Below are positions 49,301 through 55,300 of a stretch of DNA of 64,000 nt, piece after piece. This DNA comes from Escherichia coli (lineage in GTDB: Bacteria > Pseudomonadota > Gammaproteobacteria > Enterobacterales > Enterobacteriaceae). Within the stretch, counting starts at the first letter, position 1. Every line of letters starts with the position of its first letter. Where the stretch lies: assembly GCF_030013205.1 (NCBI RefSeq), contig NZ_CP122648.1. One strand, written 5' to 3'. The position numbers are program-made.

Positions 49301-52300
49301 GCACCGCGCCAATCTTTATCAGCGCTTTATCGAAACGCTGGAGTCCGCGACGACCTGCCCGCCGGGGTTACCTTCGCGCGTCTTTATATGCGGTATTTCC
49401 GCGTTACCGCCTGTTTATCTCCAGGCGCTACAGGCGCTGGGTAAACATATTGAAATCCATCTCCTGTTTACCAACCCCTGCCGTTATTACTGGGGCGACA
49501 TTAAAGATCCTGCTTATCTGGCGAAACTGCTGACTCGCCAGCGCCGACACAGTTTTGAAGATCGCGAATTACCGCTATTTCGCGACAGCGAAAATGCCGG
49601 ACAGCTCTTTAACAGCGATGGTGAACAGGATGTCGGCAACCCGCTGCTGGCCTCATGGGGCAAGCTTGGGCGCGACTACATTTATCTCCTTTCTGATCTG
49701 GAGGGCAGCCAGGAGCTGGACGCCTTTGTCGATGTCACGCCAGATAACCTGCTGCATAACATTCAGTCTGACATTCTGGAACTTGAAAACTGCGCTGTTG
49801 CGGGTGTGAATATCGAAGAGTTTTCCCGTAGCGATAACAAACGCCTGCTTGATCCACTGGATAACAGTATCACCTTCCACGTTTGCCATAGCCCGCAGCG
49901 CGAAGTTGAAGTTTTACACGATCGCCTGCTGGCAATGCTGGAGGAAGACCCGACATTGACTCCGCGCGACATCATCGTGATGGTGGCTGATATCGACAGC
50001 TACAGTCCGTTTATTCAGGCAGTGTTTGGTAGCGCACCTGCGGATCGTTACCTACCTTACGCCATTTCCGACCGTCGGGCGCGGCAGTCACATCCGGTAC
50101 TGGAAGCGTTTATCAGCCTGTTATCACTGCCTGACAGTCGCTTTGTGTCAGAGGATGTGCTGGCGCTGCTGGATGTGCCGGTGCTGGCGGCGCGGTTTGA
50201 CATCACCGAAGAAGGGCTGCGTTATTTACGCCAGTGGGTCAACGAGTCTGGCATTCGTTGGGGGATAGATGACGACAACGTTCGCGAGCTGGAACTCCCC
50301 GCTACCGGTCAACACACCTGGCGGTTTGGCCTGACGCGCATGTTGCTGGGCTACGCGATGGAGAGCGCGCAGGGCGAGTGGCAATCGGTTCTACCTTATG
50401 ATGAATCGAGCGGCTTAATTGCAGAACTGGTGGGGCATCTGGCTTCACTGCTAATGCAGCTAAACATCTGGCGTCGCGGGCTGGCGCAGGAGCGTCCGCT
50501 GGAAGAGTGGTTGCCGGTTTGTCGCGATATGCTCAACGCCTTCTTCCTGCCGGATGCGGAAACCGAAGCGGCGATGACGCTGATCGAACAACAATGGCAG
50601 GCGATTATCGCCGAAGGTTTAGGTGCGCAGTATGGCGACGCGGTGCCGCTGTCACTATTGCGTGATGAACTGGCACAGCGCCTGGATCAGGAACGTATCA
50701 GCCAGCGTTTTCTCGCCGGACCGGTTAACATTTGTACTCTGATGCCAATGCGTTCCATCCCATTCAAAGTGGTTTGCCTGCTGGGAATGAACGACGGCGT
50801 TTATCCACGCCAGCTTGCGCCATTGGGCTTTGACCTGATGAGCCAGAAACCGAAGCGTGGCGACCGTAGCCGTCGCGATGACGACCGCTATCTGTTCCTG
50901 GAAGCGTTAATTTCCGCGCAGCAAAAACTCTATATCAGCTATATCGGGCGTTCTATTCAGGATAACAGTGAACGTTTCCCGTCGGTACTGGTGCAGGAAC
51001 TGATCGACTACATCGGGCAAAGCCATTATCTACCGGGCGATGAAGCGCTCAACTGTGATGAAAGCGAGGCAAGGGTAAAAGCGCATCTTACTTGCCTCCA
51101 TACCCGGATGCCGTTTGATCCGCAAAACTACCAGCCAGGCGAACGACAAAGCTATGCTCGTGAATGGCTACCTGCGGCCAGCCAGGCTGGTAAAGCACAT
51201 TCTGAATTTGTTCAGCCGCTGCCGTTTACCTTACCGGAAACCGTGCCGCTGGAAACGCTACAACGATTCTGGGCACATCCGGTACGGGCGTTCTTCCAGA
51301 TGCGTTTGCAGGTGAACTTCCGTACTGAAGACAGCGAAATCCCCGACACCGAGCCATTTATTCTGGAAGGGCTTAGCCGTTATCAAATCAATCAGCAGTT
51401 ATTGAATGCACTGGTTGAGCAGGATGATGCCGAACGCTTGTTCCGCCGCTTCCGGGCGGCAGGGGATTTACCGTATGGCGCTTTTGGTGAAATTTTCTGG
51501 GAAACACAGTGCCAGGAGATGCAGCAGCTTGCCGACAGAGTCATTGCCTGTCGCCAGCCGGGGCAGAGTATGGAAATTGATCTCGCCTGCAACGGTGTGC
51601 AGATAACTGGCTGGTTGCCGCAGGTGCAGCCGGATGGCCTGTTGCGCTGGCGTCCCTCTTTATTAAGTGTGGCGCAGGGAATGCAACTTTGGCTGGAACA
51701 CCTTGTCTACTGTGCCAGCGGTGGTAATGGTGAAAGTCGCCTTTTTCTACGCAAAGACGGCGAGTGGCGTTTTCCGCCGCTTGCAGCCGAACAGGCTTTG
51801 CATTACCTCTCACAACTGATTGAGGGGTATCGTGAAGGAATGTCCGCGCCATTGCTGGTGTTACCTGAAAGTGGCGGCGCGTGGCTAAAAACCTGTTATG
51901 ACGCGCAAAACGATGCCATGCTGGATGACGATTCCACGTTACAAAAAGCCCGTACGAAATTCCTTCAGGCTTACGAAGGCAACATGATGGTGCGTGGCGA
52001 AGGTGATGATGTCTGGTATCAACGGCTCTGGCGGCAATTAACACCAGGGACAATGGAGGCCATCGTTGAACAGTCGCAACGTTTCCTGTTACCGCTGTTT
52101 CGCTTTAATCAGTCATGAGTGCTGTATAAAAATTGCGCAATATATCTGCTTGCTTTATGATGCGCACCAGTCACGGACTGATGGATATATAGACATAGGC
52201 TGACTCGTGCAGCACAAGATTAAATTCTGGCAGATGATTTGCGTTAACCTGTTGAATCTGGCCAGAAAATAAAGTTGATTATGAGGTCCGTGAATGCCCC

Positions 52301-55300
52301 GCAGCACCTGGTTCAAAGCATTATTGTTGTTTGTTGCCCTTTGGGCACCCTTAAGTCAGGCAGAAACGGGATGGCAGCCGATTCAGGAAACCATCCGTAA
52401 AAGTGATAAAGATAACCGCCAGTATCAGGCTATACGTCTGGATAACGGTATGGTGGTCTTGCTGGTTTCTGATCCGCAGGCGGTTAAATCGCTCTCGGCG
52501 CTGGTAGTGCCCGTTGGGTCGCTGGAAGATCCCGAGGCGTACCAGGGGCTGGCACATTACCTTGAACATATGAGTCTGATGGGGTCGAAAAAGTACCCGC
52601 AGGCTGACAGTCTGGCCGAATATCTCAAAATGCACGGCGGCAGTCACAATGCCAGCACGGCACCGTATCGCACGGCTTTCTATCTGGAAGTTGAGAACGA
52701 CGCCTTGCCCGGTGCGGTAGACCGCCTGGCGGACGCTATTGCTGAACCCTTGCTCGACAAGAAATACGCCGAACGTGAACGTAATGCAGTGAATGCCGAA
52801 TTAACCATGGCGCGTACGCGTGACGGGATGCGCATGGCACAGGTCAGCGCAGAAACCATTAACCCGGCACACCCCGGTTCAAAGTTTTCTGGTGGTAACC
52901 TCGAAACTTTAAGCGACAAACCCGGAAATCCGGTGCAGCAGGCGCTGAAAGATTTTCACGAGAAATATTACTCTGCCAATCTGATGAAGGCGGTTATTTA
53001 CAGCAATAAACCGCTGCCGGAGTTGGCAAAAATGGCGGCGGACACCTTTGGTCGCGTGCCGAACAAAGAGAGCAAAAAACCGGAAATCACCGTGCCGGTA
53101 GTCACCGACGCGCAAAAGGGCATTATCATTCATTACGTCCCGGCGCTGCCGCGTAAAGTTCTGCGCGTTGAGTTTCGCATCGATAACAATTCAGCGAAGT
53201 TCCGTAGTAAAACGGATGAATTGATTACCTATCTGATCGGTAATCGCAGCCCAGGTACACTTTCTGACTGGCTGCAAAAGCAGGGATTAGTTGAGGGCAT
53301 TAGCGCCAATTCCGATCCTATCGTCAACGGCAACAGCGGCGTATTAGCGATCTCTGCGTCTTTAACCGATAAAGGTCTGGCGAATCGCGATCAGGTTGTG
53401 GCGGCCATTTTTAGCTACCTCAATCTGTTACGCGAAAAAGGGATTGATAAACAATACTTCGATGAACTGGCGAATGTGCTGGATATCGACTTTCGTTATC
53501 CGTCAATCACCCGTGATATGGATTACGTCGAATGGCTGGCAGATACCATGATTCGCGTTCCTGTTGAGCATACACTGGATGCAGTCAATATTGCCGATCG
53601 GTACGACGCTAAAGCAGTAAAAGAACGCCTGGCGATGATGACGCCGCAGAATGCGCGTATCTGGTATATCAGCCCGAAAGAGCCGCACAACAAAACGGCT
53701 TACTTTGTCGATGCGCCGTATCAGGTAGATAAAATTAGCGCACAAACTTTCGCTGACTGGCAGAAAAAAGCCGCCGACATTGCGCTCTCTTTGCCAGAGC
53801 TTAATCCTTATATTCCTGACGATTTCTCGCTGATTAAGTCAGAGAAGAAATATGACCACCCAGAGCTGATTGTTGATGAGTCGAATCTGCGCGTGGTGTA
53901 TGCGCCAAGCCGTTATTTTTCCAGCGAACCCAAAGCTGATGTCAGCCTGATTTTGCGTAATCCGAAAGCCATGGACAGCGCCCGCAATCAGGTGATGTTT
54001 GCGCTCAATGATTATCTCGCAGGGCTGGCGCTTGATCAGTTAAGCAACCAGGCGTCGGTTGGTGGCATAAGTTTTTCCACCAATGCTAACAACGGCCTTA
54101 TGGTTAATGCCAATGGTTACACCCAGCGCCTGCCGCAGCTGTTCCAGGCTCTGCTGGAGGGCTACTTTAGCTATACCGCTACGGAAGATCAGCTTGAGCA
54201 GGCGAAGTCCTGGTATAACCAGATGATGGATTCTGCAGAAAAGGGCAAAGCGTTCGAGCAGGCGATTATGCCCGCCCAGATGCTCTCGCAAGTGCCGTAC
54301 TTCTCGCGAGATGAACGGCGCAAAATTTTGCCCTCCATTACTTTGAAAGAGGTGCTGGCCTATCGCGACGCCTTAAAATCAGGGGCTCGACCAGAGTTTA
54401 TGGTTATTGGCAACATGACCGAAGCCCAGGCAACAACGCTGGCACGCGATGTGCAAAAACAGTTGGGCGCTGATGGTTCGGAGTGGTGTCGTAACAAAGA
54501 TGTCGTGGTCGATAAAAAACAATCCGTCATCTTTGAAAAAGCCGGTAACAGCACCGACTCCGCACTGGCAGCGGTATTTGTACCGACTGGCTACGATGAA
54601 TACACCAGCTCAGCCTATAGCTCTCTGTTGGGGCAGATCGTACAGCCGTGGTTCTACAATCAGTTGCGTACCGAAGAACAGTTGGGCTATGCCGTGTTTG
54701 CGTTTCCAATGAGCGTGGGACGTCAGTGGGGCATGGGCTTCCTGTTGCAAAGCAATGATAAACAGCCTTCATTCTTGTGGGAGCGTTACAAGGCGTTTTT
54801 CCCAACCGCAGAGGCAAAATTGCGGACGATGAAGCCAGAAGAGTTTGCGCAAATCCAGCAGGCGGTAATAACCCAGATGCTGCAGGCACCGCAAACGCTC
54901 GGCGAAGAAGCATCGAAGTTAAGTAAAGATTTCGATCGCGGCAATATGCGCTTCGATTCGCGTGATAAAATCGTGGCCCAGATAAAACTGCTGACGCCGC
55001 AAAAACTGGCCGATTTCTTCCATCAGGCGGTGGTTGAGCCGCAAGGCATGGCTATTCTGTCGCAGATTTCCGGCAGCCAGAACGGGAAAGCCGAATATGT
55101 GCATCCTGAAGGCTGGAAAGTGTGGGAGAACGTCAGCGCGTTGCAGCAAACAATGCCCCTGATGAGTGAAAAGAATGAGTGATGTCGCCGAGACACTAGA
55201 TCCTTTGCGCTTGCCCTTACAGGGCGAGCGCCTGATTGAAGCCTCTGCCGGCACAGGCAAAACCTTTACGATTGCGGCGCTCTATTTGCGCCTGTTACTT

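What the first reader, a model, noticed from the sequence alone, without database searches (positions are those of the whole stretch)
52294..55182. Periplasmic protease gene embedded between recC and recB with overlapping boundaries
ptrA lies between recC and recB, and its 3' end overlaps the recB start by 8 bp, implying translational coupling of a periplasmic protease gene with a cytoplasmic helicase-nuclease gene. This is the known K-12 arrangement, noted only because the functional linkage is not obvious.
Basis: partly seen in the sequence, partly recalled or inferred. Interest (0 to 1): 0.15.

Follow-up and report, generated by a model that had tools for sequence, protein, structure and literature searches.

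The report
ptrA inside the E. coli recBCD cluster
This is the textbook E. coli arrangement in which the gene for a periplasmic protease (ptrA) sits between recC and recB and runs 8 bases into recB. It is real, conserved and probably helps keep RecB scarce, but it is already described and not surprising.

Summary
Window 52294-55182 is ptrA (pitrilysin, protease III). Its TGA stop (55180-55182) lies 5 nt after the recB ATG (55175), which gives an 8-nt overlap, ATGAGTGA. Only this boundary overlaps: recC ends 175 nt before ptrA.

The window is E. coli, and 5425 of 5426 complete genomes carry the same junction. In 81 other Enterobacterales species the order recC-ptrA-recB-recD always holds. In 77 of them the ptrA stop and recB start overlap: 4 nt in 50, 8 nt in 18, 1 nt in 8, 20 nt in 1.

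recB has the weakest Shine-Dalgarno pairing of the three genes. Published work already describes a ptrA-recB-recD operon with the recB ribosome-binding site inside ptrA, and proposes translational coupling. It also reports Hfq control through the ptrA leader and sigma-E induction.

The best reading is therefore co-transcription plus inefficient termination-reinitiation. Coupling has never been tested directly, and a separate recBD transcript has been reported.

Two small additions came out of this work:
- recC-ptrA adjacency also exists in Pasteurellaceae, without recB, so the linkage is older than the enterics.
- A conserved leader helix may mask the ptrA ribosome-binding site.

Verdict: already known, low interest.

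The parts
48750..52118 (+). recC (exonuclease V gamma subunit), 1122 aa. It lies 12 nt after ppdC.
   Evidence: ORF; Pfam Exonuc_V_gamma and RecC_C; RefSeq annotation.
52133..52161 (+). Conserved sigma-70-like promoter for ptrA-recB-recD: TTGCGC, 17-nt spacer, TATGAT. The start site is inferred near 52168.
   Evidence: Both hexamers are conserved across Enterobacteriaceae. The position fits the statement in PMC12342828 that the Hfq site lies 76 nt downstream of the promoter. It matches 8 of 12 consensus positions, below the scan threshold. The start site was not mapped here.
52171..52179 (+). 5' arm (UCACGGACU) of a candidate long-range leader helix, inside the conserved block GTCACGGACTGATG (52170-52183).
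   Evidence: The MFE fold pairs it with 52285-52293. The pairs form in 91.7% of cells over 41 Enterobacteriaceae. Only one-sided wobble changes occur and there are no compensatory double changes. Inferred, not proven.
52244..52279 (+). Counterpart of the published 36-nt Hfq-binding site in the ptrA 5'UTR. It has A-R-N motifs and differs from K-12 at 3 of 36 positions.
   Evidence: Sequence compared with the K-12 sequence quoted in PMC12342828.
52283..52293 (+). ptrA Shine-Dalgarno GAGG (52283-52286) and spacer. Positions 52285-52293 (GGUCCGUGA) form the 3' arm of the candidate leader helix.
   Evidence: The anti-SD duplex energy is -6.3 kcal/mol.
52294..55182 (+). ptrA (pitrilysin, protease III), 962 aa. 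The signal peptide MPRSTWFKALLLFVALWAPLSQA is encoded at 52294-52362. The HxxEH zinc motif (H88, E91, H92) is encoded at 52555-52569.
   Evidence: ORF; four M16 Pfam domains; invariant H88, E91 and H92 in alignment A1; leader peptide read; 99% identical to database pitrilysins.
54963..54971 (+). Candidate internal extended -10 element (TGATAAAAT), 204 nt upstream of the recB ATG. This is an unverified lead for a recBD-only transcript.
   Evidence: It lies in the ptrA stretch with the lowest synonymous diversity, codons 883-920 (mean entropy 1.0 against 1.40 overall). Most other genera have TAAAGT at this position. No start-site data could be retrieved.
55175..55182 (+). The 8-nt ptrA/recB overlap ATGAGTGA: recB start codon at 55175-55177, ptrA stop codon at 55180-55182.
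   Evidence: The junction is present in 5425 of 5426 E. coli genomes. Geometry across species is given.
55175..58717 (+). recB (exonuclease V beta subunit), 1180 aa, with a weak Shine-Dalgarno sequence (GAGTGAAAAGA upstream of the ATG).
   Evidence: Pfam UvrD-helicase, UvrD_C and PDDEXK_1. The N-terminus matches PDB 1W36 chain B. The anti-SD duplex energy is -2.5 kcal/mol.
55207..55231 (+). Stem-loop in recB codons 11-19: GCGCUUGCCCU-UAC-AGGGCGAGCGC, an 11-bp stem starting 33 nt after the ATG.
   Evidence: Fold. Some wobble-position compensations occur across Enterobacteriaceae (C-G to U-A 5 times, G-C to A-U 6 times), but a slid control scores as high, so the test is inconclusive.
58703..58719 (+). 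recB/recD junction GGAGGAGGCGTAATG: a strong Shine-Dalgarno sequence inside recB and a 1-nt stop/start overlap.
   Evidence: The anti-SD duplex energy is -12.1 kcal/mol.
58717..60543 (+). recD (exonuclease V alpha subunit), 608 aa, the last gene of the operon. argA follows on the opposite strand.

Best explanation
Window 52294-55182 is ptrA, the first cistron of the E. coli ptrA-recB-recD operon.

A conserved promoter in the 175-nt recC-ptrA spacer, with some read-through from recC, produces one mRNA. Ribosomes load at the moderately strong ptrA RBS, and Hfq bound just upstream restricts that loading. They translate the secreted protease and terminate at UGA 55180-55182, 5 nt past the recB AUG. 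A fraction of the terminating ribosomes re-initiate at that AUG.

recB has almost no Shine-Dalgarno sequence of its own, so RecB synthesis is low and is set largely by ribosome traffic through ptrA. recD then follows through a 1-nt overlap with a strong Shine-Dalgarno sequence. The arrangement therefore keeps RecB scarce and ties RecB and RecD supply to signals acting on the ptrA promoter and leader, namely Hfq and the sigma-E envelope-stress response.

Shown here or in the literature: gene identities, the overlap, its conservation, co-transcription, and the effect of the leader on RecB output.

Inferred: termination-reinitiation is the route, and I put about 0.65 on coupling contributing materially. 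There is no evidence that PtrA and RecBCD work together biochemically.
For: - Gene identities and the junction.
- Species-wide presence in E. coli.
- The order recC-ptrA-recB-recD holds in every Enterobacterales locus where the contig reaches both flanks.
- Stop/start overlap occurs in 77 of 81 loci: 50 by 4 nt, 18 by 8 nt, 8 by 1 nt and 1 by 20 nt.
- The recB anti-SD pairing is weaker than that of ptrA in 74 of 79 loci and weaker than that of recD in 77 of 79. In this window the values are -2.5, -6.3 and -12.1 kcal/mol.
- The promoter hexamers and leader blocks are conserved.
- PMC12342828 describes the polycistronic ptrA-recB-recD operon, places the recB RBS inside ptrA, and finds the main Hfq peak next to the ptrA RBS. 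Deleting that site halved recB mRNA and raised RecB per mRNA from 7.9 to 16.3.
- Sigma-E induces ptrA, recB and recD together (PMC2731931; PMC2909356).
- Long-read RNA data support ptrA-recBD and recC-ptrA-recBD transcripts.
Against: - No experiment has placed a premature stop in ptrA or separated the stop from the start, so coupling itself is untested.
- The same long-read study predicts a recBD-only transcript.
- A candidate extended -10 element lies 204 nt upstream of recB, in the least synonymously variable part of ptrA.
- Four species tolerate a gap of 3, 44, 44 and 413 nt between ptrA and recB, so the overlap is not essential.
- In Serratia, an in-frame ptrA deletion left recB and recD mRNA roughly unchanged. 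Protein was not measured.
- The species compared are related, so the counts are not independent events.
Confidence: 0.7

Rival explanations
1. The overlap reflects only compact gene packing in an operon. recB is translated by independent, inefficient binding of free 30S subunits at its weak RBS. ptrA translation matters at most by keeping the region unfolded.
For: Overlaps of 1, 4 and 8 nt are common among neighbouring genes: 14 of 45 co-directional pairs in this window overlap, 4 of them by 8 nt. The geometry drifts between 1, 4, 8 and 20 nt, and four species have gaps. The region around the recB AUG is mostly unpaired in the predicted fold.
Against: recB keeps a weak Shine-Dalgarno sequence in nearly all species while staying within a few nt of the ptrA stop. 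Removing an Hfq site next to the ptrA RBS, 2.9 kb away, doubled RecB output per mRNA. That is hard to explain if recB initiation were independent of ptrA translation.
Confidence: 0.22
2. recB and recD are expressed mainly from a promoter inside the 3' part of ptrA, so the position of ptrA is irrelevant to RecB levels.
For: A recBD-only transcript is predicted from direct RNA reads. A candidate extended -10 element, TGATAAAAT, lies at 54963-54971 in the stretch of lowest synonymous diversity. The Pseudomonas recCBD operon was inferred to have internal promoters.
Against: The consensus scan found no sigma-70-like site in the last 2.5 kb of ptrA. A deletion in the ptrA leader halved recB mRNA. 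Sigma-E induction raises ptrA, recB and recD together. Direct-RNA 5' ends are prone to truncation. The candidate -10 element is TAAAGT in most genera.
Confidence: 0.1
3. The linkage is functional. PtrA belongs with the neighbouring competence pseudopilin genes and recC, and was retained there because its periplasmic activity serves the same DNA-uptake and processing pathway.
For: The block of pseudopilin genes, recC and ptrA is found in Pasteurellaceae as well as Enterobacterales. In H. ducreyi recC and ptrA overlap by 4 nt. The pseudopilin-recC linkage and its Sxy/CRP-S regulation are published. The GC3 of ptrA equals that of recC and recB, so ptrA is not a recent arrival.
Against: No phenotype links PtrA to recombination or DNA uptake; PMC12342828 states it has no known role in DNA repair. 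More distant ptrA homologues (47%, 41% and 35% identity) are not near rec genes. Conserved gene order between related orders can be inherited without any function.
Confidence: 0.07

Closest known systems
[quoted passage not shown]
   Same: Gene order, gene sizes, the 8-nt ptrA/recB overlap, the 1-nt recB/recD overlap, the position of the promoter and Hfq site, and the RecB N-terminus all match.
   Different: There are only allelic differences. The 3.5-kb region (window 52000-55500) is 95-99% identical to most E. coli genomes and 100% identical to a group of swine isolates. The Hfq site differs from K-12 at 3 of 36 positions.
Classic translationally coupled pairs with overlapping stop and start codons: trp operon genes (Oppenheim and Yanofsky 1980) and galT-galK (Schumperli et al. 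1982), as cited in PMC12342828
   Same: The genes are on the same strand and the same mRNA. The upstream stop lies within a few nt of the downstream start, and the downstream RBS is buried in the upstream coding sequence.
   Different: In those cases the coupled products belong to one pathway and coupling was shown genetically. Here the products go to different compartments, have no known shared function, and coupling is only inferred.
Contiguous recC-recB-recD operons of other proteobacteria, for example Pseudomonas syringae Lz4W
   Same: The reading frames for the three RecBCD subunits overlap on one primary transcript.
   Different: No protease gene lies between recC and recB. In the enteric version recC is separated from recB-recD by ptrA and by a promoter-bearing spacer.
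Pasteurellaceae block of comNOPQ-like pseudopilin genes, recC and ptrA
   Same: Pseudopilin genes, recC and a pitrilysin gene occur in the same order and orientation. recC and ptrA are 12-135 nt apart, or overlap by 4 nt.
   Different: recB and recD are not downstream. mutS, a solute-binding protein gene or dnaJ follows instead. There ptrA is the last gene of the block, not a leader cistron.

Membership tests
Pitrilysin (protease III, peptidase family M16A) | Four-domain M16 architecture of about 960 aa | tested here: met
   Peptidase_M16, M16_C, M16_M and PqqF-like_C_4 are all well above their cut-offs. The protein is 99% identical to database pitrilysins.
Pitrilysin (protease III, peptidase family M16A) | Inverted zinc-binding motif HxxEH | tested here: met
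   H88, E91 and H92 are invariant in alignment A1, which spans 34-91% identity.
Pitrilysin (protease III, peptidase family M16A) | N-terminal Sec signal peptide, indicating a periplasmic location | tested here: met
   Read: MPRSTWFKALLLFVALWAPLSQA followed by ETGW. This shows a basic n-region, a hydrophobic core and a small-x-small cleavage site. No dedicated predictor was run.
RecBCD (exonuclease V) gene set | recB encodes a UvrD-type helicase with a C-terminal PD-(D/E)XK nuclease, and recC and recD lie alongside it | tested here: met
   Pfam results. The RecB N-terminus is identical to PDB 1W36 chain B.
Translationally coupled gene pair (termination-reinitiation) | Both genes are on one mRNA | not testable with these tools
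   The evidence is published. The ptrA-recB-recD operon and the halving of recB mRNA by a ptrA-leader deletion are in PMC12342828.
Translationally coupled gene pair (termination-reinitiation) | The upstream stop codon lies within a few nt of the downstream start codon | tested here: met
   There is an 8-nt overlap in this window. A stop/start overlap is kept in 77 of 81 other species.
Translationally coupled gene pair (termination-reinitiation) | The downstream gene lacks a strong independent ribosome-binding site | tested here: met
   The recB anti-SD duplex energy is -2.5 kcal/mol here (median -4.3 across species). The value is -6.3 for ptrA and -12.1 for recD.
Translationally coupled gene pair (termination-reinitiation) | Translation of the downstream gene depends on translation of the upstream gene up to its stop codon | not testable with these tools
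   This needs ptrA nonsense or stop-relocation mutants with RecB protein measured. Only indirect support exists, from the Hfq-site deletion.
Horizontally acquired insertion (the explanation cited for the position of ptrA) | Atypical composition, or a distribution restricted to a shallow clade | tested here: not met
   ptrA GC3 is 0.583, against 0.588 for recC and recB. recC-ptrA adjacency is present throughout the sampled Enterobacterales and in Pasteurellaceae. An ancient transfer cannot be excluded.

The most novel reading that the evidence does not exclude
ptrA is not an accidental interloper. It is an anciently fixed partner of recC, with the pseudopilin-recC-ptrA block predating the split of Enterobacterales and Pasteurellaceae. 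In enterics it has been co-opted as a regulatory leader cistron. Its promoter, its Hfq site and a conserved helix that masks its RBS together meter ribosome flow into recB and recD, which links RecBCD dosage to envelope stress.
Probability: 0.12. Interest if true: 0.45.

Novelty: already known. Interest (0 to 1): 0.12.

Why it matters
RecBCD must be kept at a few molecules per cell, because both too little and too much impair DNA repair. Knowing that RecB is made from a weak start site embedded in the end of an unrelated, secreted-protease gene explains how that scarcity is achieved. It also explains why signals acting on ptrA, such as Hfq and sigma-E, reach RecB.

All of this is already in the literature for K-12. 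This window adds nothing unexpected beyond showing that the arrangement is species-wide and order-wide.

Two modest additions could help anyone dissecting RecB regulation. The first is that the recC-ptrA linkage also exists in Pasteurellaceae. The second is a conserved leader helix over the ptrA RBS. Neither changes the picture.

Tried and rejected
- **Alternative recB start.** The GTG at 55166 would give a 17-nt overlap. I rejected it because it is absent outside Escherichia and Citrobacter, while the ATG is universal and matches solved RecB chains.
- **Sigma-E promoter.** A crude search for GGAACTT, a 15-17-nt spacer and TCTGA/TCAAA over 51800-52300 found nothing. Published sigma-E induction therefore has no mapped site here. 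The conserved block GTCACGGACTGATG resembles a sigma-E -10 region, as I recall it from rpoH P3, but it has no -35 partner, so I did not adopt that reading.
- **Generic promoter and terminator scan.** Over 48500-60800 there were 4 promoter-like hits against 8.6 expected from shuffles. The only plus-strand hit is at 52604-52631, in the 5' part of ptrA, and there is no convincing terminator between the genes.
- **Rfam.** No known RNA family was found in the locus or in the Intestinirhabdus insertion.
- **Start-site tables.** The supplements of two E. coli 5'-end studies were either not held or lacked the coordinates.
- **recB hairpin starting 33 nt after the ATG.** Pairing and covariation exceed the shuffles, but one slid control scores higher, and the stem is lost outside Enterobacteriaceae. 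The result is inconclusive.
- **Leader helix.** It is conserved and compatible with wobble pairing, but it has no compensatory double changes and equals the column shuffles. It remains unproven.
- **Recent horizontal transfer of ptrA.** There is no compositional signal.
- **The 1986 recB sequence paper.** It could not be retrieved by DOI. What I recall of it is not used as evidence.

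
Full report
**What is in the sequence**

The window is an E. coli chromosome segment. Positions 52000-55500 match 5425 of 5426 complete E. coli genomes. They are 100% identical to a group of swine isolates and 95-99% identical to most others.

In the identical strain K_EC180, RefSeq annotates the following genes on one strand: lgt, thyA, ppdA, ppdB, ygdB, ppdC, recC, ptrA, recB, recD. argA then follows on the opposite strand. The ORF list gives the same frames.

Pfam confirms each product:
- RecC has the Exonuc_V_gamma and RecC_C domains.
- PtrA has the four pitrilysin/M16 domains.
- RecB has a UvrD helicase plus a PD-(D/E)XK nuclease.
- RecD has the RecD_N and AAA_30 domains.

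PtrA carries the HxxEH zinc motif; H88, E91 and H92 are invariant in alignment A1. It begins with a typical signal peptide, MPRSTWFKALLLFVALWAPLSQA, read.

**The junction**

One search shows ...aaaagaATGagTGAtgtc.... The recB ATG is at 55175 and the ptrA TGA is at 55180-55182.

The mechanical ORF begins at an upstream GTG (55166). That codon exists only in Escherichia and Citrobacter, whereas the ATG aligns in every species examined. Solved RecB chains start at MSDVAETLDPL.

The other boundary does not overlap. recC ends at 52118, which is 175 nt before ptrA. recB and recD overlap by 1 nt (TAATG) behind a strong GGAGGAGG Shine-Dalgarno sequence.

An 8-nt overlap is not unusual in itself. I counted by hand from the annotation tables. 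There are 45 co-directional neighbouring gene pairs in this window. Fourteen overlap, and 4 of those overlap by exactly 8 nt.

**Comparative evidence**

I searched one genome per species with a PtrA alignment and kept the best 80 loci. They come from Enterobacteriaceae, Yersiniaceae, Erwiniaceae and Pectobacteriaceae, with 63-99% PtrA identity. One further locus at 54% identity came.

Every locus that extends far enough has the order recC-ptrA-recB-recD. Over the 81 loci, the spacing between the ptrA stop and the recB start is as follows:

| Spacing | Loci | Notes |
|---|---|---|
| 4-nt overlap (ATGA) | 50 | the most common form |
| 8-nt overlap (ATGnnTGA) | 18 | Escherichia, Citrobacter, Kosakonia |
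| 1-nt overlap (TAATG or TGATG) | 8 | |
| 20-nt overlap | 1 | |
| 3-nt gap | 1 | |
| 44-nt gap | 2 | Buttiauxella |
| 413-nt gap | 1 | Intestinirhabdus alba |

A stop/start overlap is thus kept in 77 of 81 species, although its exact form drifts. The 8-nt form seen here is a minority variant found in three genera.

Predicted pairing to the 16S anti-SD sequence is weakest for recB. The medians are -4.3 kcal/mol for recB, -6.4 for ptrA and -9.4 for recD. In this window the values are -2.5, -6.3 and -12.1. recB is weaker than ptrA in 74 of 79 loci and weaker than recD in 77 of 79. The species are related, so these counts describe a conserved state, not independent events.

**The spacer and leader**

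An alignment of the recC-ptrA spacer shows conserved hexamers TTGCGC, a 17-nt spacer and TATGAT (52133-52161). This fits the published statement that the Hfq site lies 76 nt downstream of the promoter.

The counterpart of that 36-nt Hfq site is at 52244-52279. It differs from K-12 at three positions.

Just after the inferred start site lies a conserved block, GTCACGGACTGATG. The minimum-energy fold pairs 52171-52179 with 52285-52293, which covers half of the ptrA Shine-Dalgarno sequence and the whole spacer to the AUG.

Across 41 Enterobacteriaceae leaders, 91.7% of the pair positions can form. Eight of the nine pairs vary on one side only, in wobble-compatible ways. There are no compensatory double changes, and the result equals the column shuffles. 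The helix is a reasonable candidate for an RBS mask, but it is unproven.

**What the literature already says**

- PMC12342828 (eLife 2025) describes two operons, recC and ptrA-recB-recD. It notes that the recB RBS lies within ptrA and suggests translational coupling. It attributes the position of ptrA to an old horizontal transfer.
- The same paper finds the main Hfq peak beside the ptrA RBS. Deleting that site halved recB mRNA and raised RecB per mRNA from 7.9 to 16.3.
- Sigma-E overproduction induces ptrA, recB and recD together (PMC2731931; PMC2909356).
- A direct-RNA study predicts three transcripts: recBD, ptrA-recBD and recC-ptrA-recBD.
- An in-frame ptrA deletion in Serratia left recB and recD mRNA about unchanged.

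**Most likely mechanism**

The three genes are co-transcribed. Ribosomes load at the ptrA RBS, terminate 5 nt beyond the recB AUG, and some of them re-initiate there. Because recB has almost no Shine-Dalgarno sequence, its output is low and follows ptrA translation. recD is then picked up efficiently through its own strong site.

Co-transcription and the effect of the leader on RecB output are shown in the literature. The termination-reinitiation step is inferred from the geometry, the weak recB Shine-Dalgarno sequence and its conservation. I put about 0.65 on coupling contributing materially.

**Rivals**

- **Pure gene packing with independent weak initiation.** This fits the drift in geometry and the four species with gaps. 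It does not easily explain why removing an Hfq site 2.9 kb upstream doubles RecB per mRNA.
- **An internal promoter.** One probably exists at some level, given the recBD transcript. A candidate extended -10 element, TGATAAAAT, lies at 54963-54971, in the ptrA stretch of lowest synonymous diversity (codons 883-920; entropy 1.0 against 1.40). It cannot account for all recB expression, because a leader deletion halves recB mRNA. The candidate is also weaker (TAAAGT) in most genera.
- **A functional tie between PtrA and DNA metabolism.** This has no direct support.

**A point that modifies the usual account**

ptrA homologues in Pasteurellaceae sit immediately after recC and its upstream pseudopilin genes. 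This holds for a metagenomic contig, for Mannheimia haemolytica and for Haemophilus ducreyi.

No recB follows in these loci; mutS, a solute-binding protein gene or dnaJ comes next. In H. ducreyi, recC and ptrA overlap by 4 nt.

More distant homologues at 47%, 41% and 35% identity are not near rec genes. A lineage related to Candidatus Symbiodolus has recC and ptrA arranged divergently. The GC3 of ptrA equals that of its neighbours.

The recC-ptrA linkage is therefore older than the enterics, and ptrA is more faithfully tied to recC than to recB. The pseudopilin-recC linkage itself is already published. In the two papers I checked that discuss the pseudopilin-recC linkage, the ptrA extension is not mentioned.

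**Verdict**

The arrangement is the known, species-wide and order-wide organisation of the enteric recBCD region. It is ordinary, and the only open item is a direct test of coupling. Interest is low.

Noticed in passing
window 1-20000: This is the ETT2 type III secretion island, with eiv/epa/epr-type genes and ygeH. Four of its genes are annotated as frameshifted or truncated: a SpaN-like gene (3990-4864), a YscQ-like gene (4824-5810), an EscU-like gene (7513-8622) and ygeH (16693-18068). An IS2 lies at 9032-10260 and an IS1 at 21907-22604. All of this comes from the RefSeq annotation of the identical strain.
   Followed up: no
window 34791-35075 (+) and 63499-63791 (-): Rfam finds the tandem sRNAs of the OmrA-B family (two copies) and three identically scoring tRNA genes in a row near the end of the window.
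   Followed up: no
window 52171-52179 with 52285-52293: A conserved 9-bp long-range helix in the ptrA leader would cover half of the ptrA Shine-Dalgarno sequence and the spacer to the AUG. It is pairable in 91.7% of cells over 41 Enterobacteriaceae. Only wobble-type one-sided changes occur, so covariation does not prove it. The eLife paper on RecB regulation does not mention it.
   Followed up: partly
window 52199-52213: A small leader hairpin (GCTG...CAGC) changes sequence but keeps its pairing in other genera, for example GCTGGC/GCCAGC and GCCGGC/GCCGGT. In this window a T-to-G difference from other Escherichia sequences shortens the stem from 5 to 4 bp.
   Followed up: no
window 55207-55231: An 11-bp stem with a 3-nt loop lies in recB codons 11-19, starting 33 nt after the ATG. 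Several third-codon-position changes across Enterobacteriaceae are compensatory, but a slid control scores as high and the stem is lost in Erwiniaceae and Yersiniaceae.
   Followed up: partly
window 54963-54971: An extended -10-like sequence, TGATAAAAT, lies inside ptrA 204 nt before recB. It falls in the ptrA stretch with the lowest synonymous diversity, codons 883-920. It could be the source of the reported recBD-only transcript. No start-site data could be retrieved.
   Followed up: partly
window 47001-48750: ppdA, ppdB, ygdB and ppdC overlap one another by 10, 4 and 16 nt and end 12 nt before recC. This is a second non-obvious linkage, between pseudopilin genes and recC. It is already known as a Sxy/CRP-S-regulated block shared with Pasteurellaceae comNOPQ.
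   Followed up: partly
L088 1758-7949; L089 2575-8946; L090 2663-8955: In Pasteurellaceae the order is pseudopilin genes, recC, then ptrA, and no recB follows. In H. ducreyi recC and ptrA overlap by 4 nt. The recC-ptrA adjacency is therefore older than Enterobacterales.
   Followed up: yes
L037 8899-9314; L045 and L049 8887-8933: These are natural uncoupled variants. Intestinirhabdus alba has a 413-nt G+C-rich insert of unknown nature between ptrA and recB, followed by a better Shine-Dalgarno sequence (AGAGGA), and it has no Rfam match. Buttiauxella has a 44-nt spacer that ends in TATAAT just before the recB ATG.
   Followed up: partly
L018, L021, L025, L056 (about 5975-6003) and related Enterobacter and Lelliottia loci: The ptrA leader carries what looks like a short duplication of the RBS region. 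The first copy has a mutated Shine-Dalgarno sequence (GATGTAGCCGTGA). A second, functional copy, AAAGAGGTCGTAATG, follows. This moves the real Shine-Dalgarno sequence out of the candidate leader helix.
   Followed up: no
L086 1510-7955: This contig's PtrA is 61% identical to that of Candidatus Symbiodolus clandestinus, its closest named relative. recC and ptrA are arranged divergently. A PIN-domain toxin-antitoxin-like gene pair sits between ptrA and the ppd-thyA-lgt block, and recB is not adjacent.
   Followed up: partly
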